Virus record (IMG/VR): IMGVR_UViG_3300049015_000016
Span: 1 to 60,801 of that record
Strand: one strand, 5' to 3'
DNA from: a virus
Length of the DNA stretch: 60,801 bases
Shown in pieces: positions 45,420 to 53,835 of the stretch (the stretch's first letter is position 1; each line of letters starts with the position of its first letter). The notes under the pieces are model-generated. The model did not search any database. It was given only the letters and a program-made list of their open reading frames with translations, and was not told where the DNA came from. Position numbers and translations under genes: made by a program.

Positions 45420-48400
45420 ATGAGCCTCGATTTTGACTACCAAGCAGCACGCGCCGCCGGCTACTCCGACGACGCAATCCTGGACGGCCTGCAGCGTGCG
45501 GGCCGTTTGTCTTTCGACCTGGACGCAGCGAAGAAGCGCGGGTACTCCGCAGCCGAGATCCTGCAAACTATGTATGGCGGCGCCAGCAGCGCGCCGGCGC
45601 CTGCGCAGGAACCGGAATCGACCAGCCTGCTGCGCCGAGCCGGCGACGTCGGCATCTCCGCGCTGAAGGGCGTCATCGGCGTGCCGGAGGCACTGGTGGG
45701 CCTGGCCGACATTCCGACGGGCGGCGCCGCCGGCCGCGCTGCTGAGTCGCTGGGCATGAAGTTCCGCGAGTCGAAGGAACTGCTGTCGGACCTGTACTCG
45801 CCGGCGCAGAAGGCCGCGAACCAGAAGGTGGCCGACGCGCGCGGCTTCGTGGATACCGCCGGCGCCATGCTGTCGAACCCGTCGACGATCGCGCAGACGG
45901 CGGTGGAATCCCTGCCGTCGATGGGCCTGGGCGGCGCGCTCGGCCGCGGCGCGCTGGCGCTGGCACCGAAGCTGGGCGCCGTTGGCGCAGCAGCGTTTGG
46001 CGAGGGTGCGGTGGGCGCCGGCAGCGCGGCGGAACAGACGCGCCAGCAGTCTGGCGGCGACCTGTCGCTGGGCCAGGCTGGCGCCGCGCTGGCATCCGGT
46101 ATCGGCACGGGCATCTTCGGCGCCGTGGGCGGGCGCATCGCGCAGAAGCTGGGTATCAGCGACATCGACACCGCGCTGGTGCAGGCGGGTGCGCCGGCCG
46201 GCAGCACGAAAGGCGTCATCCGCCGCATGATCGAGGGTGGCGTGTCGGAAGGCGTGTTCGAAGAGCTGCCGCAGTCGATGCAGGAGCAAATCTGGCAGAA
46301 CGCCGCCATGGGCAAGCCGCTGCTGGAAGGCGTGGGCGAGAATGCGGCGCAAGGCCTGATCGCTGGCGGCCTGTTCGGCGGCGTCGCCGGCGGCGTGCTG
46401 CGCGGCAAAACGAACCAGCCAGAACAAACAGGACAGCCGGAACAGCAGCCCGGCCAGGCACCGCTGCTGACCAACACGCCAGACCCGTTCATCTCGTTCC
46501 CGGACGGCTCCGTCGGCCGCCAGTCGGACGTCGATGCATTCCTGAACAGCATGCCGGAGAGCGACCGCGCCACCGCGCGCGCACGGCTGTATGGCTACGC
46601 GCCGGAGGAAGTTCCAGCGCCGACACCCGCTGACGTGCTGAACGCCGGCAGCGTCGACGAGGCGATCGCCACTGCGGCCGAGGCCGTGGCCGGCAGCACG
46701 CCGGACATGATGGCCGCGCGCGACGCGCAGATCGATGCCGCATGGAGCACGTTCATCCGCGAGCGCGCCACGCAGCGACAGGCTGAATTCGACGCCGCCG
46801 AGCAGCAGCGCCGCGAGGCGGACGTGCCGTCCATGCAGGCGCAGCAGGCGGACCAGCAGGTCGAGCAGGCTGCCGCGCTGACGTCGGCGCAGGGCTTCGA
46901 CGAGCCGGCGCCGACGGCGATGCAGATGGCCATGCAGGAGGCGCAGGCCAAGCGCCAGGCGGCGCTCGCCGCGGCAACGCAGCGCAGCGCCATGACACAA
47001 CCCACCGACGCAGGAGTAGCCGATGTCCCGCCAGTCCCTGCTGACGCTGTTGCACCTGCACCTGCTGGAGCGCCAGATATCGCTGCTGGAGCAGCACAAC
47101 CTGCGCCTGCTGTCGCTGCTGGGCAGCCAGCAGCCAACGCCAGCGCAGCACCTGCTGGCCGAGCTGCGGCCGCACCGGAAACCCTGACGCGGGCCCGCGA
47201 GATTCTGTCCGCCGCCGGCGTCACCGGCAACGAGCGCATGGCCGCGCTGCGCGCCATCCGCACGGGCGAGAACACGCTGGACGACCTGATCGACGCACAC
47301 CCACCGAAGGAGATCACGAATGCAACCGCACCAGGACCAGAAGCAGCAGGAGCAGGAATTCGAAATGTCAGCGGAGCGCGCGATGAAACTTCTGTGGCAG
47401 TACAACGGGGTGCCGAAGTGCCAATGCAAGGCGCTGAAGGGGCTGATACTCGTGGGACATCCGCTGCCGGAGCGGATGCACGACCTGCTGGAGAAAGTGT
47501 GGCTGATGCAGTTGCGCCGGCCAGCACGCCCCAACTGATCGACGACGCGCCGCTGGCGTCCGCCGCGCCGCGCACCGCCGAAACGCTGGGCGACGTGCGC
47601 GCCGCGTGGGATGCAGCCGGCATCAAGAACTTCATCAGCGAGCGCGGCGACAAGATCAACTTGGCGCAGATCGTCGTGCCGCAGTCCGCGCGAGGCGCTG
47701 GCGCTGGCACGCGCGCGATGCAGCAGCTGGTCGAGTACGCGGACCGCACCGGCAAGACCGTGACACTCACGCCGTCGGCGGACTTCGGCGGCACGAAATC
47801 GCGGCTGGTCGAGTTCTACAAACGGTTCGGCTTCGTCGAGAACAAGGGGCGCACGCGCGATCCCGAGATCAGTGAGGCGATGTACCGACCGGCCACGGAC
47901 AATGCCCGCTCCAGCACGGCGCCAGCCGAAGACGGATTTCCGGCATCGCTCGATCAGCGCGGTATGTCCGCCGCCGATGTCACCCGCGCCATCACCCGCC
48001 TGCGCGCGAAGTGGGCCGGCTTCACGCAGGTGGAAGTCATGCAGTCCGTCGACGACCTGCCGGCCGACGTGCGCGAGCGCGCCGGCGCGGACCAGGGCAC
48101 CGAGGGCCTGTACGATCCACGCAGGGCCCGCGTGTACCTGATCGCCGAGAACATCGCGACGCCCGAGCGCGCGGCCTGGGTCGCAGCGCACGAGGTTGTC
48201 GGCCACGGCGGCCTGCGCATGCTCAACGACAAGTCGGTCAGCGACGCGCTGAAGCTGGCCGGCGCCAACCGGTTCGTGCGCGAGCTGGGCGCGGCCATCG
48301 CGAAGGATCGCGGCGGTGACCTGTCGACGAACATCCAGGTCGAGGAGGCCGTGGCCGAGATCGCAGCGGCAACGGAAGCCGACGACTTCGATGCGCTGGC

Positions 48401-51400
48401 CGAGCGCTACGGCGTCGCGGTCCCGGCCGCCGCGCGCAACGGCGTTCGCGGTGTCGCGGCGCGCGTGCTGGACGCGGTGCGCCGGTTCCTGGCCGCGATT
48501 ACCGGCCGCCCTGTGGCCGACGTGTCGGACGCAGACGTGCGCGGGCTGGTCGCCCAGCAGCAGGCCGCTGTCGAGGGTCGCGGCGCGAACGCGTCGCAGC
48601 CGGGCGCCGAGCCTGCGCTGGCCTCCGTACCGCCTGCTTCTGATCGGACGATCGAGGTTGACGGCGAGCGCCGGCCCGTCACGGACAGCACGGGCAAGTT
48701 GGTGGCGCAGGACATGAACAAGCAGCTGGCCTTTTACAAATGGTTCGGCGACAGCAAGGTCGTGGACAAGGAGGGCCGGCCGCTGGTGGTCTACCACGGC
48801 ACGACCGCAGATGTTGAAGCATTCAACCCAGCCTTCTCCGGCTCCGATGGTGTGGGCTATAGCGTGCCGGCATTTTTCGCAACATCCGATAAGGCGCTCG
48901 CATCTGATTACGCGAACAACAAATTCAACCGCAATATCGCCGATGCCATGCGTGCGATGCAGCAGTACAAGAACGAAAATCCTGGCGAATACGGCGACGA
49001 GTACGAAGCCAAATACCAAGCCGTCAAAGACGCATTCAAAACGGTCAAGGATGGCCGCGAAACTGGTGGCGGCGCCAATGTCATACCAATGTATATGGCG
49101 ATCAAGAAGCCTTTGGTGATCGATGCAATGGGCAAGCGGTTTATGCAGGTAATGCCGGATGCTGTTGCCCGCGTAGTGGCTGAGGGATATGACGGCGCGA
49201 TCGTGCACAACGTCATTGATCACGCATCGCCAGCCAGCGAATATCCGGCCTCGGTTTATTTTGCGATGAAGCCCGAGCAGATCAAGTCGGCCATCGGCAA
49301 CGCCGGCACGTTCGACCCGAACGATGCCGACATCCGCGCCAGCCGCGCGCCGGCCGCACCGCAGAACCCGGCCGGCGAAGAGCGCATCCCGAAATGGGCC
49401 GCCGACCTGACGCCCGAGCAGCAGGCCGCGCTGCGCAAGTCCGGCGCGATCTACACCGAGAAGACCATGCGCCAGAAGGTGGCCGAGCTGAAAGAGGGCG
49501 CGCTGAAGAAGCTGCAATACGGCATCCTCGACCAGTTCGCCCCGATCAAGGATCAGCTGGGCAAGGTGCCGTACATGCACGCGCGGCTCGCGAAGGCGGC
49601 CGACGGCACGCTGGAGGCGATGATGCTGTACGGCCGCCCGCACCTGGATGCCGACGGCGGCATGCTGGTCGACACCACGAAGAAAGGGTTCGTCGAGACG
49701 ATGCGCCAGCTGGACGGCGAGCACGACCGTTTCTTCTCCTGGCTGGCCGGCAAGCGCGCCGCGCAGCTGAAGAAGGAGGGCCGCGAAAACCTGTTCACCG
49801 ACCAGGACATCAGCGCGCTGGCGACGCTGAACCAGGGCACGATGAAGGACGGCAGCAGCCGCGAGGCGGCGTACCTGCGCGCGCAGAAGGACGTGGCCGA
49901 ACTGAACAAGTCCGTGCTGGATATCGCCGAGAAGTCCGGGCTGATCGACGCCGAATCGCGCAAGGTGTGGCAGAGCGATTTCTACGTGCCGTTCTACCGC
50001 GTGATGGAGGAGGGTATCACCGGTCCGTCCGTGAAGTCCGGGCTGGTCAACCAGAAGTCGATCAAGAAGCTGAAGGGCGGCACCAACAACCTGGGCGACC
50101 TGACACAGAACATGCTGATGAACTGGTCGACGCTGCTGACGGCCAGCGCCAAGAACCGCGCGGCGAAGGCGTCGCTGGATGTGGCCGTCGGACTGGGCGT
50201 GGCCAGCGAGGCGCCAGAATCGACGCTCAAGGCCATGGCCAAGTCGGCGAAGACGCGCGCCGTGTCCTACATGGAGGACGGCACGAACCGCTGGTTCATC
50301 GTCGAGGACGACAACCTGCTGGCCGCGATCAGCGCACTGGAGTTCAACGGCTACAACAACCAGGCCATGAAGGTGATGTCGACCTTCAAGAACTGGCTGA
50401 CGCGGGCCATCACGATCAGCCCGTACTTCAAGGTGCGCAACCTGATCCGCGATTCGCTGTCGGTGATCGCCGTGTCCGAGGCCGACTACAACGTGCTGAA
50501 GAACTGGAAGACCGGCGCGTCGCTGCTGCGCAACAAGGACGAGATGGCGCAGATGGTCGCCGGCGGCGGCATCTTCCGCTTCGGCACGCACATGGAGGGC
50601 AACCGCGGCGAGAACGTTAAACGCCTGATCGACGACGGCATCCCCGACGACACCGTGCTGAACACGGCCGAGAAGATGGCCAAGTTCACCCGCAAGCTGT
50701 ACATGGCCTACGAGCAGGTGGGCGACCTGTCCGAAAACCTGAACCGCGCCGCGCTCTACAAGAAGCTGCGCGACGAGGGACGGTCGCACCTGGAGGCGTC
50801 ATTCGAGGCGCGCGACCTGATGGACTTCGGCCTGTCCGGCGCCTGGGCCGGCGTGCGCGCGCTGAACCAGATCCTGCCGTTCTTCAACGCCAGGCTGCAG
50901 GGCCTGTACAAGCTGGGCCGCGGCTACAACGACGACCCGAAGCGCATGGCCTACGTGGTGGGCGCGCTGGCGCTGGCGACGATCGCGCTGTCGGCTGCGT
51001 TCAAGGACGACGACGACTTCAAGAAGCGCAGCGACTCGGACCGCGCGAACTACTGGTGGTTCAAGGTGGGCGGCATCGCCTACCGGATCCCGAAACCGTT
51101 CGAGATCGGCGCGGCCGCGACGGCGATCGACGAGCTGTTCGCCTTGTGGTACGACAGCGAGAACACGAACGGCGAGCGCTTCGCCCACCAGATGGGGGAG
51201 CTGATCAACGGGCAGCTGGCGATGAACCCGATCCCCCAGGTGTTCCGCCCCCTGATCGACGTCTACGCCAACAAGGACGCGTTCAGCGGCCGGCCGATCG
51301 AATCGATGGCGATGCAGCGCCTGCGGCCGGAGGACCGCTACACCAGCAACACGTCCGAGTTGGCGCGCCTGCTGTCGAAAGCCGGCGTGCTGGTGGACCC

Positions 51401-51914
51401 GGTCAGCCTGGTCGCCGGCACGGGCGTGAAGCAGCTCTCGCCGGTCCAGATCGATTCGCTGATCAAGGGCTACTTCGCTGGCGTTGGCGTGCTGGCGGTG
51501 TCGGCGGCCGACGGCCTGCTGCACCACACGCTGATCGACCGCGGCGCGGCGCTGCCGATCCCACTGCGCACGCTGACCGGGTCGTTCGCGGAAGAGTTGC
51601 CGACGAACAGCAGCCGCTACGTGGACATGCTCTACAAGACGGCGCAGGACGTCGAGCAGACGTACGCCAGCTACCAGAACGCGATCAAGACCGGCGACAT
51701 CGAGAAGGCGCGCGGCATCGCCGAGAGCGAGCGCGAGACGCTGGCCAAGTACCACATGGTCGAGTCGTTGAAGAAAAACGAGACGCGCATCGGGCAGATC
51801 ATCCAGCGCGTGCGCGACGACAAGGTCATGACGGGGGAACAGAAGGAAGAGCAGATCCGGCGCCTGAAGATCGTCCAGGACCGGATCGCCCGGCAGCTCG
51901 TCACAGGTAAGTGA
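45420..51914 (+). CDS. Giant polyvalent virion protein (2164 aa): GNAT-like + HExxH zincin + ART-like + large conserved C-terminal region
   Basis: GNAT motif QSARGAGAGTRAMQQL...FYKRFGF (about 47590-47880). AAHEVVGHGG (about 48184-48210). VVYHGTTADVEAF...FFATSDKALASDYA (about 48780-49270). A single open frame throughout. Confidence 0.8.
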   Translation: MSLDFDYQAARAAGYSDDAILDGLQRAGRLSFDLDAAKKRGYSAAEILQTMYGGASSAPAPAQEPESTSLLRRAGDVGISALKGVIGVPEALVGLADIPTGGAAGRAAESLGMKFRESKELLSDLYSPAQKAANQKVADARGFVDTAGAMLSNPSTIAQTAVESLPSMGLGGALGRGALALAPKLGAVGAAAFGEGAVGAGSAAEQTRQQSGGDLSLGQAGAALASGIGTGIFGAVGGRIAQKLGISDIDTALVQAGAPAGSTKGVIRRMIEGGVSEGVFEELPQSMQEQIWQNAAMGKPLLEGVGENAAQGLIAGGLFGGVAGGVLRGKTNQPEQTGQPEQQPGQAPLLTNTPDPFISFPDGSVGRQSDVDAFLNSMPESDRATARARLYGYAPEEVPAPTPADVLNAGSVDEAIATAAEAVAGSTPDMMAARDAQIDAAWSTFIRERATQRQAEFDAAEQQRREADVPSMQAQQADQQVEQAAALTSAQGFDEPAPTAMQMAMQEAQAKRQAALAAATQRSAMTQPTDAGVADVPPVPADAVAPAPAGAPDIAAGAAQPAPAVAAGQPAANASAAPAGRAAAAPETLTRAREILSAAGVTGNERMAALRAIRTGENTLDDLIDAHPPKEITNATAPGPEAAGAGIRNVSGARDETSVAVQRGAEVPMQGAEGADTRGTSAAGADARPAGESVADAVAPASTPQLIDDAPLASAAPRTAETLGDVRAAWDAAGIKNFISERGDKINLAQIVVPQSARGAGAGTRAMQQLVEYADRTGKTVTLTPSADFGGTKSRLVEFYKRFGFVENKGRTRDPEISEAMYRPATDNARSSTAPAEDGFPASLDQRGMSAADVTRAITRLRAKWAGFTQVEVMQSVDDLPADVRERAGADQGTEGLYDPRRARVYLIAENIATPERAAWVAAHEVVGHGGLRMLNDKSVSDALKLAGANRFVRELGAAIAKDRGGDLSTNIQVEEAVAEIAAATEADDFDALAERYGVAVPAAARNGVRGVAARVLDAVRRFLAAITGRPVADVSDADVRGLVAQQQAAVEGRGANASQPGAEPALASVPPASDRTIEVDGERRPVTDSTGKLVAQDMNKQLAFYKWFGDSKVVDKEGRPLVVYHGTTADVEAFNPAFSGSDGVGYSVPAFFATSDKALASDYANNKFNRNIADAMRAMQQYKNENPGEYGDEYEAKYQAVKDAFKTVKDGRETGGGANVIPMYMAIKKPLVIDAMGKRFMQVMPDAVARVVAEGYDGAIVHNVIDHASPASEYPASVYFAMKPEQIKSAIGNAGTFDPNDADIRASRAPAAPQNPAGEERIPKWAADLTPEQQAALRKSGAIYTEKTMRQKVAELKEGALKKLQYGILDQFAPIKDQLGKVPYMHARLAKAADGTLEAMMLYGRPHLDADGGMLVDTTKKGFVETMRQLDGEHDRFFSWLAGKRAAQLKKEGRENLFTDQDISALATLNQGTMKDGSSREAAYLRAQKDVAELNKSVLDIAEKSGLIDAESRKVWQSDFYVPFYRVMEEGITGPSVKSGLVNQKSIKKLKGGTNNLGDLTQNMLMNWSTLLTASAKNRAAKASLDVAVGLGVASEAPESTLKAMAKSAKTRAVSYMEDGTNRWFIVEDDNLLAAISALEFNGYNNQAMKVMSTFKNWLTRAITISPYFKVRNLIRDSLSVIAVSEADYNVLKNWKTGASLLRNKDEMAQMVAGGGIFRFGTHMEGNRGENVKRLIDDGIPDDTVLNTAEKMAKFTRKLYMAYEQVGDLSENLNRAALYKKLRDEGRSHLEASFEARDLMDFGLSGAWAGVRALNQILPFFNARLQGLYKLGRGYNDDPKRMAYVVGALALATIALSAAFKDDDDFKKRSDSDRANYWWFKVGGIAYRIPKPFEIGAAATAIDELFALWYDSENTNGERFAHQMGELINGQLAMNPIPQVFRPLIDVYANKDAFSGRPIESMAMQRLRPEDRYTSNTSELARLLSKAGVLVDPVSLVAGTGVKQLSPVQIDSLIKGYFAGVGVLAVSAADGLLHHTLIDRGAALPIPLRTLTGSFAEELPTNSSRYVDMLYKTAQDVEQTYASYQNAIKTGDIEKARGIAESERETLAKYHMVESLKKNETRIGQIIQRVRDDKVMTGEQKEEQIRRLKIVQDRIARQLVTGK
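47023..47187 (+). CDS. Nested +1-frame ORF (54 aa, Leu-zipper-like) inside the giant gene
   Basis: AGGAG lies 6 nt upstream of the ATG. Third positions are G/C-rich in this frame but not in frame 0. MSRQSLLTLLHLHLLERQISLLEQHNLRLLSLLGSQQ... Confidence 0.4.
   Translation: MSRQSLLTLLHLHLLERQISLLEQHNLRLLSLLGSQQPTPAQHLLAELRPHRKP
47320..47538 (+). CDS. Nested +1-frame ORF (72 aa) inside the giant gene
   Basis: GGAG lies 7 nt upstream of the ATG. Third positions are G/C-rich in this frame, while frame 0 is A/T3-rich and low-complexity here. Confidence 0.45.
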   Translation: MQPHQDQKQQEQEFEMSAERAMKLLWQYNGVPKCQCKALKGLILVGHPLPERMHDLLEKVWLMQLRRPARPN

Positions 51915-52965: not shown

Positions 52966-53195
52966 AACGCAAAAAGCGCCTCGTCGACGACTGGCAGCGC
53001 TGCTGGCGCTGGCTGTCCGTGCAGTGCATGACGGCCGCCCTGGCAGTACAGGGGGCCTGGATGTTCATCCCCGACGACATGAAGACGTCGATCCCACCGG
53101 AGATCGTGCGCGGCGCGACGATGGCGCTGCTGGCGCTGGGCATCGCCGGCCGGCTGAAGAACCAGACGAAGGGGGAAGACGATGAGCCAAAATGA
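52962..53195 (+). CDS. Holin-like membrane protein
   Basis: 77 aa, WRWLSVQCMTAALAVQGAWMFIP...ATMALLALGIAGRL. Overlaps the endolysin start. Confidence 0.6.
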   Translation: MKRKKRLVDDWQRCWRWLSVQCMTAALAVQGAWMFIPDDMKTSIPPEIVRGATMALLALGIAGRLKNQTKGEDDEPK

Positions 53196-53835
53196 TCTGA
53201 TCACCCCCGGCATCCTGCGCGAGATCATGCCGTCCGTCGGCGCCCGCGCTGATGTGCACGCCGGCCCGCTCAGCGCCGCCATGGTCGCCTACGGCGTGAC
53301 CAACCCGCTCAGCCAGGCCGCATTTATCGCCCAGGTGCTGCACGAAACCGGCGGCCTGCGCGCCTTCGTCGAAAGCCTGAACTACACGCCCGAGGCACTG
53401 CTGGTCACTTTCAATACCTCCAAGGCCACGCGCTTCACGATCGAGCAGGCGCGGCAATACGGCCGCACGGCCACTCACGCAGCGAACCAGGAGATGATCG
53501 GCAACCTGGCTTATGCAAACCGCATGGGCAACGGCGACGCGGCCAGCGGCGACGGCTTCCGCTTCCGGGGCCGCGGCGCGTTCCACGTGACTGGTCGCAC
53601 CAACTACACGGCCGCCGCGCGCGCGCTGGGCCTGGACCTGATCACGCACCCTGGCCAGCTTGAGCTGCCCGGCCCGGCCGCAATGTCCGCTGGCTGGTAC
53701 TGGCTGGCCAACGGCCTGAACGCCCTGGCGCAGAGCGACAACATCGTCGAGGTGAGTAAGCGCGTGAACGGCGGCGTCAACGGGCTGGCCGAACGCGTCG
53801 AGCTGTACCGGCGCGCGAAGAAGGCCCTGGCATGA
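53182..53835 (+). CDS. Endolysin, glycoside hydrolase family 19 (chitinase-like lysozyme)
   Basis: AAFIAQVLHETGGL...GDGFRFRGRGAFHVTGRTNY...AGWYW...VNGGVNG motifs. Confidence 0.9.
   Translation: MSQNDLITPGILREIMPSVGARADVHAGPLSAAMVAYGVTNPLSQAAFIAQVLHETGGLRAFVESLNYTPEALLVTFNTSKATRFTIEQARQYGRTATHAANQEMIGNLAYANRMGNGDAASGDGFRFRGRGAFHVTGRTNYTAAARALGLDLITHPGQLELPGPAAMSAGWYWLANGLNALAQSDNIVEVSKRVNGGVNGLAERVELYRRAKKALA

What the first reader, a model, noticed from the sequence alone, without database searches (positions are those of the whole stretch)
47000..47540. Two SD-led ORFs nested in the +1 frame of the giant gene, where frame 0 degenerates into linker
Frame 0 (phase of 45420) has G/C-rich third positions almost everywhere. 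The exceptions are 47023-47187 and 47320-47538, where its third positions turn A/T-rich and it encodes Ala/Pro/Gly low-complexity sequence (DAGVADVPPVPADAVAPAPAG..., ATAPGPEAAGAGIRNVSG...). In exactly those stretches the +1 frame has G/C-rich third positions and forms complete ORFs. Each has its own AGGAG or GGAG 6-7 nt before the ATG. The first is 54 aa with heptad leucines (MSRQSLLTLLHLHLLERQISLLEQHNLRLLSLLG...). The second is 72 aa (MQPHQDQKQQEQEFEMSAERAMKLLWQYNGVPKCQCK...). Between them (47188-47319) frame 0 is again the well-composed frame. Frame 0 never hits a stop, so the large protein reads through. Possible explanations are overprinted genes living in linkers of an injected polyprotein, former separate genes now fused by read-through, or frameshift isoforms.
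Basis: seen in the sequence. Interest (0 to 1): 0.7.

Follow-up and report, generated by a model that had tools for sequence, protein, structure and literature searches.

The report
Small genes hidden inside giant phage gene
Two stretches of a 2,164-codon phage gene that encode floppy spacers of a giant virion protein also carry complete small genes in a second reading frame, and one of them belongs to a conserved, previously unannotated family that was embedded this way in every phage locus examined.

Summary

In the giant polyvalent-protein gene (45420-51914), frame 0 stops looking like coding sequence in only two places. Those places are the two +1 ORFs.

ORF2 (47320-47538, 72 aa) is a real embedded gene.
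- Homologues lie in the +1 frame of a long host ORF in all ~19 related loci examined. None was free-standing.
- 16 of 17 tabulated copies have a Shine-Dalgarno (SD) motif 4-9 nt before the ATG.
- Substitutions fit purifying selection on the +1 frame: pN/pS 0.26-0.64, against 1.1-3.7 for frame 0 on the same bases.
- AlphaFold2 gives a three-helix bundle with a core pLDDT near 90. The overlapped host segments score 25-32 and are predicted coil.
- Frame 0 is nevertheless kept free of stops by selection.

ORF1 (47023-47187, 54 aa) has the same anatomy but only two relatives and weaker evidence of selection (P about 0.02).

No family or fold match gives a function. Frameshift isoforms, fossil frames, an antisense gene, introns and assembly error are disfavoured.

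Fully embedded phage genes are a known kind (Rz/Rz1). A conserved family inside the linkers of polyvalent virion proteins appears undescribed.

The parts
45420..51914 (+). Host gene. It encodes a 2164-aa polyvalent virion-type protein in frame 0. The order is an N-terminal module (aa 1-~520), linker 1, a mini-domain, linker 2, GNAT, an HExxH peptidase-like region, ART-PolyVal and LPD38.
   Evidence: ORF list. Pfam hits are LPD38 (1e-35), ART-PolyVal (1.5e-19) and GNAT. PHROG hits are to giant virion proteins. The HEVVGH motif was read in the translation.
46992..47174 (+). Frame-0 linker 1 (host aa ~525-585). It is rich in Ala, Pro and Gly, has A/T-rich third positions, and is overlapped by ORF1.
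   Evidence: Frame-0 GC3 is 0.15-0.45. AF2 gives pLDDT 29-32 and coil for aa 525-582. The codon-likelihood scan favours the +1 frame here.
47012..47016 (+). Shine-Dalgarno AGGAG of ORF1. It is followed by a +1-frame TAG (47017-47019) and lies 6 nt before the ATG.
   Evidence: Read in the sequence. The same 'GGAGTAGCCGATG' arrangement is present in L004.
47023..47187 (+). ORF1, an embedded +1-frame gene candidate of 54 aa with a Leu-rich N-terminal helix.
   Evidence: ORF list. Its codon choice is native-like at -0.62. Homologues are in L004 (phmmer E 4e-10) and L012 (visual identification plus MAFFT; not detected by phmmer at E<=0.01). For codons 1-36, pN/pS is 0.52 in the +1 frame against 3.47 in frame 0. 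The permutation test gives P=0.017.
47175..47297 (+). Frame-0 mini-domain between the two embedded genes (host aa 586-626, 'ILSAAGVTGNERMAALRAIRTGENTLDDLIDAHPP'). Here frame 0 is the well-composed frame.
   Evidence: Frame-0 GC3 is 0.9-1.0. The domain is conserved in P0001-P0005 and P0007. AF2 gives pLDDT 70-88 and three short helices.
47307..47312 (+). Shine-Dalgarno AAGGAG of ORF2, built from the frame-0 codons for Lys-Glu of 'HPPKE' and lying 7 nt before the ATG.
   Evidence: Read in the sequence. An SD-like core lies 4-9 nt upstream of the ATG in 16 of 17 loci.
47320..47538 (+). ORF2, an embedded +1-frame gene of 72 aa. It belongs to a conserved family of 62-98 aa (mostly 62-78 aa) three-helix proteins.
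   Evidence: Homologues are embedded in the +1 frame in all loci examined. pN/pS is 0.26-0.64 against 1.1-3.7 for frame 0, and changes by codon position are 50/26/58. Permutation P ranges from 0.0026 to <5e-5. HMMER finds 23 representatives. AF2 gives mean pLDDT 77.7 with a core near 90.
47310..47579 (+). Frame-0 linker 2 (host aa ~631-720), a low-complexity segment overlapped by ORF2.
   Evidence: Frame-0 GC3 is 0.2-0.4. AF2 gives pLDDT 25-30 and coil. Frame-0 identity to relatives is 27-32%, against 48-55% for ORF2 on the same bases.

Best explanation
The giant gene encodes a virion-type polyvalent protein whose domains are joined by disordered spacers. Two of these spacers are dual-coding: the same DNA, read one base later, carries a complete small gene with its own ribosome-binding site, ATG and stop.

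Ribosomes are inferred to load independently at these internal SD/ATG sites on the late mRNA. They would make the small proteins alongside the giant protein, which reads straight through in frame 0. In frame 0 almost any stop-free, flexible sequence will serve.

**ORF2**
- It is a member of a conserved family of small proteins, 62-98 aa and mostly 62-78 aa, predicted to form a three-helix bundle.
- Every copy examined lies embedded in the +1 frame of a giant polyvalent or virion-protein gene.
- Selection preserves its amino-acid sequence. Selection on frame 0 in that stretch preserves only the absence of stops.

**ORF1**
- It has the same architecture.
- It is lineage-restricted and evolves fast.
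- The evidence that it is functional is weaker.

**What is shown and what is inferred**
- Shown: the anatomy, the conservation, the direction of selection and the predicted fold.
- Inferred: independent translation of the small ORFs.
- Inferred: the biochemical role. My guess is a partner of the giant protein, such as a chaperone or packaging adaptor made in cis, or an accessory host-takeover factor.
For: **1. Specific frame switch.** Frame 0 is out-scored only at the two ORFs in 6.5 kb. Codon choice is native in the +1 frame and aberrant in frame 0.

**2. ORF2 homologues in every relative.**
- They occur in L004-L010.
- They occur in L011-L013.
- They occur in L001, L014, L017 and L018.
- They occur in L015/L016 as an acidic variant.
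- They occur in L079, inside a 6379-aa giant, and in L080.
- In every case the copy is +1 relative to a long open host frame. Where tabulated, that frame is 693-2295 codons long (L080, a fragmented assembly, 184), and the third frame is closed (6-100 codons).

**3. Start signals.** An SD-like core lies 4-9 nt upstream of a conserved ATG in 16 of 17 loci.

**4. Direction of selection on a frame-agnostic, gap-free 177-nt alignment of five genomes.**
- Minimum changes by ORF2 codon position are 50/26/58 (chi-square P=0.002).
- pN/pS is 0.26-0.64 in the ORF2 frame and 1.1-3.7 in frame 0.
- Random placement of the same number of substitutions gives fewer amino-acid changes in ORF2 with P from 0.0026 to <5e-5. 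Frame 0 changes as much as random or more.

**5. Frame 0 is kept open.** P(frame 0 stop-free | +1 protein) is 0.002-0.34 per ORF. The product over six lineages for ORF2 is about 1e-6. Conserved frame-0 domains follow the linker in the relatives.

**6. Predicted structure.**
- AF2 on ORF2 with only six sequences gives three helices and a core pLDDT near 90.
- The host aa 525-582 and 631-720 score pLDDT 25-32 and are coil.

**7. Family size.** Exhaustive HMMER finds 23 representatives of 62-98 aa. All are full-length matches.

**8. ORF1.**
- Homologues are in L004 and L012.
- The first 36 codons give pN/pS 0.52 against 3.47 for frame 0.
- The permutation test gives P=0.017.
- A different +1 ORF occupying linker 1 of L005/L008 is clearly selected: 0.27 against 2.38, with P<5e-5.
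Against: - There is no expression data of any kind.
- No function is known. Pfam, PHROGs and Foldseek against PDB and BFVD give nothing.
- In this high-GC window alone, the open state of either frame is not significant.
- ORF1 rests on two relatives. Its C-terminal ~20 codons show no +1 constraint (w 1.29). Its antisense frames are also open in the window.
- One relative (L009) carries a premature stop in ORF2, and one (L006) lacks a clear SD.
- More distant ORF2 pairs are saturated, so their pN/pS is near 1.
- Protein-guided alignments lean toward the +1 frame. This was controlled only in the five-genome core.
Confidence: 0.8

Rival explanations
1. The +1 ORFs are fossil frames. They would be remnants of once-separate small genes, or of compensated frameshifts, that were swallowed when the giant gene formed. 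They keep old codon usage but no longer make protein.
For: In relatives the N-terminal module and the LPD38 protein are separate genes, so fusions do occur in this lineage. Codon usage alone cannot separate 'still coding' from 'recently coding'. ORF1's C-terminal tail is unconstrained. L009 has a premature stop in ORF2.
Against: - ORF2 stays open, SD-led and similar at the protein level in lineages whose host proteins are only 51-59% identical.
- Substitutions are biased to +1 synonymous sites, with P from 0.0026 to <5e-5.
- A dead frame would have picked up stops and indels over this divergence.
- The family also occurs in unrelated giant genes (L001, L079).
Confidence: 0.07
2. The signal is a composition artefact. 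Ala/Pro/Gly-rich linkers force G/C at frame-0 positions 1 and 2, which mimics a GC3 signal in the +1 frame. Stop-poor high-GC DNA then yields chance ORFs with chance SD-like purine runs.
For: P(+1 open | frame-0 protein) is 0.74-0.92 in the window. Many off-frame ORFs of 50-130 aa exist across the gene. The ORF2 SD is made from the conserved frame-0 Lys-Glu codons.
Against: - It does not explain A/T-rich frame-0 third positions in a genome with GC3 of 0.88.
- It does not explain why only these two stretches switch frame in 6.5 kb.
- It does not explain +1 protein conservation with synonymous changes such as CTG>TTA, TTG>CTA and CGG>CGA in 'VWLMQLRR'.
- It does not explain persistence in 55%-GC genomes, where P(+1 open) falls to 0.05.
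- It does not explain the confident AF2 fold.
Confidence: 0.04
3. The +1 frames are frameshift isoforms. Ribosomes translating the giant gene would slip into the +1 frame and terminate at the ORF1 or ORF2 stop. That would give truncated N-terminal isoforms with alternative C-termini, like lambda G/GT or dnaX.
For: The same-strand +1 frame ends in a conserved stop. Phage structural genes are known to use programmed frameshifting (general knowledge; review PMC5009743 listed).
Against: - A +1-frame stop lies 0-1 codon before the ATG in L010, L012, L018 and L078.
- In the window, ORF1 has a TAG one codon before its ATG (47017-47019), and ORF2 has its last upstream +1 stop 10 codons before the ATG.
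- Entry would therefore have to occur inside the ORF.
- The conserved SD and ATG are then unexplained.
- No slippery motif was noted in the window sequence or the five-genome alignment; no dedicated motif search was run.
Confidence: 0.04
4. The signal comes from an artefact or another element. Options are indel errors in the assembly that fuse separate genes, an antisense gene, or a self-splicing intron or intein carrying its own ORF.
For: One relative (L004) clearly has assembly indels that break both frames. A 1866-codon antisense shadow ORF exists in the window.
Against: - The same two-frame layout recurs in more than 17 independent assemblies from different projects.
- The codon-aligned antisense frame has stops in 11 of 13 loci.
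- There is no Rfam match in 46700-47800 at E<=1.
- An intron would not need frame 0 kept open, yet it is.
Confidence: 0.02

Closest known systems
Rz/Rz1 two-component spanin genes of phage lambda and T7 (embedded architecture)
   Same: A complete small gene with its own start lies wholly inside a larger gene on the same strand, in the +1 frame for lambda and T7. The arrangement is conserved across many phages. Gene callers routinely miss the embedded gene (PMC6139136, read).
   Different: - Rz1 is an outer-membrane lipoprotein and Rz an inner-membrane protein of the lysis cassette.
- Here neither small ORF has a signal peptide or lipobox. ORF1 has no Cys, and the ORF2 cysteines are not conserved.
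- The host here is a 2164-aa polyvalent virion-type protein.
- The overlap sits in a disordered inter-domain linker.
- Spanin genes also exist in overlapped and separated architectures. ORF2 was found only embedded.
Overprinted genes of small phages and eukaryotic viruses (phiX174 E in D, B in A; MS2 L; tombusvirus p19 in p22)
   Same: One stretch of DNA or RNA codes in two frames. One product is ordered and constrained, the other disorder-rich and tolerant. The asymmetric dN/dS pattern is the same (reviews PMC8227390, PMC3494269 and PMC3744397, listed).
   Different: - Those cases are usually explained by genome-size limits in tiny genomes. Here the genome is about 60 kb of dsDNA.
- The embedded small protein is the ordered, constrained partner with native-like codon usage. 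The long host frame is the degenerate one.
- This is the reverse of the usual picture of a long ancestral frame and a short, disordered de novo frame.
Polyvalent proteins of phages and conjugative elements (Iyer et al. 2017, PMC5512222)
   Same: The host gene fits this class. It combines ART-PolyVal, LPD38, GNAT and HExxH peptidase-like domains in one giant polypeptide beside virion genes.
   Different: A term search of that paper found no mention of overlapping or nested reading frames, or of linkers, in polyvalent genes. The embedded genes are an added layer.

Membership tests
Same-strand embedded (overprinted) protein-coding gene | A complete ORF from start to stop lies wholly inside a longer ORF in another frame of the same strand. 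| tested here: met
   ORF1 (47023-47187) and ORF2 (47320-47538) are both +1 inside 45420-51914.
Same-strand embedded (overprinted) protein-coding gene | The ORF has its own translation-initiation signals, an SD and a start codon, conserved in relatives. | tested here: met
   AGGAG lies 6 nt (ORF1) and 7 nt (ORF2) upstream of the ATG. For ORF2, 16 of 17 loci have an SD-like core 4-9 nt upstream of the ATG. For ORF1, L004 has the same arrangement.
Same-strand embedded (overprinted) protein-coding gene | Purifying selection acts on the embedded frame, shown on the same nucleotides as the host frame. | tested here: met
   ORF2: pN/pS is 0.26-0.64 against 1.1-3.7, position changes are 50/26/58, and permutation P ranges from 0.0026 to <5e-5. 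ORF1 is only suggestive: P=0.017 overall, and its tail is unconstrained.
Same-strand embedded (overprinted) protein-coding gene | The embedded product is actually made, shown by ribosome footprints or peptides. | not testable with these tools
   No expression data exist for this uncultured phage or its relatives.
ORF2 small-protein family (defined here; no public name) | Profile match over the full length, with the motif pattern 'EMSA..A...LRR.N..PRQ...L..L....P.P..L..L.E.V.L.Q..P....LH-stop' and a length of 62-98 aa (mostly 62-78). | tested here: met
   The window ORF2 aligns end to end with P0085-P0109 and with the locus copies. HMMER gives 23 representatives at E<=1e-3.
Two-component spanin (Rz1-type o-spanin embedded in an i-spanin gene) | The embedded product has a lipoprotein signal with a lipobox Cys. 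The host gene encodes a small inner-membrane protein in the lysis cassette. | tested here: not met
   ORF1 has no Cys. The ORF2 cysteines are not conserved, and neither ORF has an N-terminal hydrophobic signal. The host is a 2164-aa polyvalent protein. The endolysin lies downstream at 53182-53835.
Programmed ribosomal frameshift isoform | The +1 frame is open from a slippery site in the host frame into the alternative C-terminus. | tested here: not met
   A +1 stop lies 0-1 codon before the ATG in four loci, and 1 codon before it for window ORF1.
Polyvalent protein (host gene) | Several effector or LPD domains are combined in one giant polypeptide in a phage late or virion context. | tested here: met
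   Pfam finds ART-PolyVal, LPD38 and GNAT. An HEVVGH motif is present. PHROG hits are to 1636-3925-aa profiles, one annotated virion RNA polymerase. Relatives have an SU10-type adaptor gene upstream.
Group I/II intron or intein carrying an ORF | A conserved RNA structure or intein splicing motifs are present, and the host frame need not stay open. | tested here: not met
   No Rfam match at E<=1. Frame 0 is kept stop-free beyond chance across lineages.

The most novel reading that the evidence does not exclude
The disordered linkers of giant polyvalent virion proteins may be a general, systematically overlooked home for small +1-frame genes. Under this reading several unrelated families (ORF1, ORF1', ORF2, ORF3 and others) would be made from internal start sites of the giant gene's mRNA. 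They would act as dedicated partners of the giant protein, or as extra anti-host effectors.

A stronger version concerns origin. The giant proteins may have been assembled by reading through pre-existing small genes in another frame. Those genes then became the linkers, a kind of gene fusion by overprinting.
Probability: 0.35. Interest if true: 0.85.

Novelty: new variant of a known kind. Interest (0 to 1): 0.72.

Why it matters
- **Hidden genes.** Phage annotation pipelines forbid nested genes, so this family is effectively invisible. Its only database copies were called on short or fragmented contigs or at contig ends, where the host gene call was truncated or broken.
- **An unusual kind of overlap.** Few examples are established of a conserved, fully embedded gene in a large dsDNA phage, and here the cost of overlap is close to zero. 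The small protein is folded and constrained, and the host frame is a spacer that only needs to avoid stops.
- **A testable rule.** Disordered linkers of long proteins may be the permissive places to look for hidden genes.
- **A functional link.** The small proteins are tied to polyvalent virion proteins, the injected anti-defence and take-over arsenal of phages. They may be missing components of that system.
- **Practical consequence.** Engineering or recoding such giant genes, or scoring their linkers as neutral, would unknowingly destroy a second gene.

Tried and rejected
**Searches that found nothing**
- tblastn of ORF1 and ORF2 against 50,697 phage records found no match.
- blastn of the region against the phage records hit only the GNAT segment.
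- The genome-contig scan hit only a GNAT relative in Achromobacter.
- Pfam and PHROGs gave nothing for ORF1, ORF2 or the other embedded ORFs. The only hits were chance-level, such as DUF309 at E 0.057.
- Foldseek of the ORF2 model found nothing below E 0.7 in either PDB or BFVD.
- No Rfam match was found.
- No free-standing ORF2 gene was found. The database copies on long contigs (P0097 on 94.7 kb, P0091 on 38 kb) proved to be embedded too.

**Ideas tested and dropped**
- I recalled a resemblance between the ORF3 family and DUF3008. It was tested and not supported.
- The antisense-gene reading was rejected because of stops in 11 of 13 loci.

**Methods that fell short**
- A generic codon-likelihood scan of all long ORFs in 75 loci, at the thresholds used, missed known ORF2 copies. 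It is therefore not a prevalence estimate.
- L004 could not be used for the ORF2 C-terminus because of assembly indels.
- Codon usage was considered as a way to decide which frame is ancestral. It was rejected because long-term constraint on +1 alone would produce the same pattern.
Full report
**1.

The window contains a 2164-codon ORF at 45420-51914 on the + strand. Two complete ORFs lie in its +1 frame: 47023-47187 (54 aa) and 47320-47538 (72 aa).

Start signals, read from the sequence:
- ORF1 is preceded by AGGAG at 47012-47016. A +1-frame TAG follows directly, and the ATG comes 6 nt after the SD.
- ORF2 is preceded by AAGGAG at 47307-47312, 7 nt before its ATG.

Composition:
- Frame-0 third-position GC is 0.85-1.0 on both sides and in the 47188-47280 interval.
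- It collapses to 0.15-0.45 across the two ORFs, while the +1 third position is 0.8-1.0.
- A codon-usage log-likelihood scan over the entire giant gene shows frame 0 losing to another frame only at 46980-47175 and 47310-47535.
- Conditional on the amino acids, synonymous codon choice in the +1 ORFs (-0.62 and -0.92) equals that of the rest of the gene (-0.69). Frame 0 in those stretches is far off (-1.92 and -2.08).

- G/C at frame-0 positions 1 and 2 is forced by the Ala/Pro/Gly content.
- An open +1 frame is expected by chance in this 65%-GC DNA, at P 0.74-0.92.

The real anomalies are the A/T-rich third positions of frame 0, the start signals and, as shown below, the conservation.

**2. The host gene**

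- Pfam finds LPD38 (aa 1864-2031), ART-PolyVal (1116-1298) and GNAT (734-808).
- An HEVVGH peptidase-like motif is visible in the translation.
- PHROGs match giant virion proteins, and an endolysin lies downstream.
- This is a polyvalent protein in the sense of Iyer et al. 2017 (PMC5512222).
- Cultured relatives are only distant: F116/H66/LKA5 'PLxRFG' proteins at 48% identity over about 100 aa.

Eight close uncultured relatives were recovered with their DNA, and 61 more viral contigs were found through the N-terminal module.
- In L005-L010 the N-terminal module is a separate gene of about 710-890 aa. Three to six genes lie between it and the LPD38 gene.
- In the window and in L014-L016 and L018 everything is fused into one ORF of 2000-2300 codons.

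**3. The same two-frame layout recurs in all the close relatives**

In every one of the eight close relatives, frame-0 GC3 collapses in the linkers. Six of them range from 55% to 62% GC; L004 is 67% GC.

The +1 frame there encodes proteins homologous to the window's ORFs. For ORF2:
- Window: MQPHQDQKQQEQEFEMSAERAMKLLWQYNGVPKCQCKALKGLILVGHPLPERMHDLLEKVWLMQLRRPARPN.
- L005: MSQQDPMFEMSALKAIKVLRRHNRVPRQEAKLLQSLILAERPMPPNLFHLLEQVWLMQLRRTPLLH.
- L018: MSQQEYDPDFEMSALTALKLLRQYNNVSRQEAKLLRSLLIAEKSLPKNQHDLLEKVWLMQLRRTPLLH.
- More divergent copies are in L004, L006, L007, L010, L014 and L001.
- An acidic variant is in L015/L016.

Database searches:
- A profile search of 5.8 billion proteins returned only five small proteins.
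- An exhaustive HMMER search of 1.84 billion representatives returned 23 proteins of 62-98 aa, all full-length matches.
- The searches returned few copies. Every one whose contig was fetched proved to be embedded: the host frame is open through it in L011, L012, L013, L079 (a 6379-aa giant) and L080.
- Those whose contigs were examined sit on short or fragmented contigs or at a contig end, where the host gene call was truncated or broken.

In all ~19 loci the small ORF is +1 relative to a long open host frame, 693-2295 codons where tabulated (184 in the fragmented L080). The third frame is closed in the 14 loci tabulated, 6-100 codons. No free-standing copy was seen.

**4. Which frame is selected**

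Five genomes (window, L005, L008, L009, L018) share a 177-nt core that aligns without gaps, and the alignment was made without reference to frame.
- The minimum number of changes by ORF2 codon position is 50/26/58 (chi-square P=0.002).
- The site that would be frame 0's wobble position is therefore the least variable.
- Nei-Gojobori pN/pS is 0.26-0.64 in the ORF2 frame and 1.1-3.7 in frame 0 on the same nucleotides.
- Examples are CTG>TTA, TTG>CTA and CGG>CGA within 'VWLMQLRR'. These are silent in +1 and change Ala/Asp/Val to other residues in frame 0.

Randomly re-placing the observed number of substitutions gives the following:
- As few ORF2 amino-acid changes as observed occur with P<5e-5 for L005-L008.
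- For the window against L005, L009 and L018 the values are P=0.0026, 0.0008 and <2e-4.
- Frame 0 changes as much as random or more.

Frame 0 is still not free. Redrawing synonymous codons of the +1 proteins from each genome's usage leaves frame 0 stop-free with P of 0.002-0.34 per ORF, about 1e-6 over six lineages for ORF2. Conserved frame-0 domains also follow the linker.

Both frames are therefore maintained. The +1 frame is maintained for its sequence, and frame 0 for continuity.

**5. Start signals and the frameshift alternative**

- 16 of 17 loci have a 4-6-nt SD core 4-9 nt upstream of the ORF2 ATG.
- In L010, L012, L018 and L078 a +1 stop lies 0-1 codon before the ATG. Window ORF1 likewise has a TAG one codon before its ATG.
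- Ribosomes arriving from frame 0 could therefore not enter upstream of the ATG. Independent initiation is the simplest reading.
- The codon-aligned antisense frame has stops in 11 of 13 loci.
- No Rfam family matches the region.

**6. Structure**

- AlphaFold2 on ORF2 with only six sequences gives a three-helix bundle (H18-28, H33-45, H51-64). Mean pLDDT is 77.7, about 90 in the core, and pTM is 0.60.
- The host's first 850 residues were modelled with nine sequences. Linker 1 (aa 525-582) and linker 2 (aa 631-720) have pLDDT 25-32 and no secondary structure.
- The mini-domain between them (aa 586-626) scores 70-88.
- Foldseek finds no significant match for ORF2 in PDB or BFVD. Pfam and PHROGs find nothing. 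The function is unknown.
- Charge is not conserved, since there are both basic and strongly acidic variants. A generic nucleic-acid-binding role is therefore unlikely (inference).
- The hydrophobic pattern and a C-terminal '...P.T.SLH-stop' tail are the most widely shared features.

**7. ORF1**

- ORF1 has homologues only in L004 (E 4e-10) and, partially, in L012.
- Over the first 36 codons, the Leu-rich helix, pN/pS is 0.52 in +1 against 3.47 in frame 0, with differences of 9/3/11 by position.
- The last ~20 codons show no +1 constraint.
- The permutation test gives P=0.017.
- Linker 1 of other lineages holds different SD-led +1 ORFs that start at a similar 'AGGAGTAnnCGATG' site.
- One of these, in L005/L008 with a homologue in L014, is clearly selected: 0.27 against 2.38, with P<5e-5.
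- I rate ORF1 as probably a real, fast-evolving embedded gene, at about 0.55-0.6.

**8. Mechanism**

Shown:
- The two stretches are dual-coding.
- The small frame is constrained and predicted to fold.
- The host frame is a stop-free disordered spacer.
- The small frame has its own conserved SD and ATG.

Inferred:
- Translation starts internally on the late transcript, so the small proteins are made alongside the giant protein.
- ORF2 is found only inside polyvalent or virion giants of differing domain content (window, L001, L079). From that I guess it is a partner of the giant protein, such as a chaperone or packaging adaptor made in cis, or an extra host-directed factor. This is speculation.

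Origin is open, with two options: de novo birth in a tolerant linker, or read-through across pre-existing small genes. Long-term constraint on +1 alone would produce the observed codon usage, and no free-standing homologue was found.

**9. Comparison with known systems**

- The closest known architecture is Rz/Rz1. It is a complete gene embedded in +1, conserved, and missed by gene callers (PMC6139136). The spanin-defining features, a lipobox and a membrane host protein in the lysis cassette, are not met here.
- The asymmetric selection resembles classical overprinting (PMC8227390, PMC3744397). The roles are reversed, because here the short embedded frame is the ordered, constrained one.
- A term search of the polyvalent-protein survey found no mention of nested or overlapping frames.
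- Full-text searches found no description of genes embedded in polyvalent-protein linkers.

**10. Verdict**

- It is a new variant of a known kind, the embedded phage gene, with a new conserved small-protein family.
- There are hints of generality. Other +1 ORF families occur in other linkers and in other giant genes.
- The interest score is 0.72.

Noticed in passing
L009:9532-9726: The ORF2 copy in L009 has a premature stop 14 codons before the family's usual end. The downstream 'VWLMQLRRPHLLH-stop' is still intact in the same frame. This could be a recent nonsense mutation, a tolerated truncation or a read-through stop.
   Followed up: partly
L007:9955-10113; L018:8594-8746; L009:13498-13662; L006:14437-14577; L017:12435-12575: A third small-protein family ('MPLKKSASNAALKENLGKEIASGKKPSQAAAIAYSVQ...') lies inside the first giant gene's linker in L007 and L018 and at positions within the separate LPD38 gene in L009, L006 and L017 (the +1 offset was worked out by hand for L009 only). 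It has no Pfam match, and it is absent from the window.
   Followed up: partly
L041:8096-8245; L047:8276-8476; L051:7661-7852; L053:10220-10510; L059:9332-9514; L020:9101-9304: Other giant polyvalent genes that give no ORF2 HMM hit also contain +1 ORFs in low-complexity, codon-switch segments. Five of the six have a visible SD-like motif; L020 does not. L051's ends like an ORF2 relative. They were not tested for selection.
   Followed up: partly
window 47000-47013 and 47299-47312: A 14-nt direct repeat, ACCCACCGA(C/A)G(C/G)AG, lies immediately upstream of both embedded start sites and runs into each SD. It may be chance or a shared initiation context.
   Followed up: no
window 47175-47297; host aa 586-626: A conserved three-helix mini-domain of about 40 aa ('AAGVTGNERMAALRAIRTGENTLDDLIDAHPP', pLDDT 70-88) sits between the two dual-coding linkers. 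It is missing in L009 and L010, where ORF2 follows the N-terminal module directly.
   Followed up: partly
L004:9862-11067 (GCA_024708845.1, JAMXTI010011020.1): The closest relative has an indel inside ORF2. It fuses the ORF2 N-terminus to the GNAT domain and truncates frame 0 at 679 aa. Many other genes on the contig are fragmented, so these are probably assembly errors.
   Followed up: yes
window 45420-51914, compared with L005-L010 and with L014-L016 and L018: The N-terminal module and the LPD38 protein are separate genes with 3-6 genes between them in some relatives. In the window and four viral contigs they are fused into one giant of 2000-2300 codons. The domain content between them also differs, for example GDSL lipase, ParB-like or GNAT+ART.
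   Followed up: partly
window 46753-47175 (- strand): A 140-codon antisense ORF is codon-aligned with ORF1 in the window, because Leu CTG is read as Gln CAG on the other strand. It is closed by stops in L004, so it is most likely a shadow ORF.
   Followed up: yes
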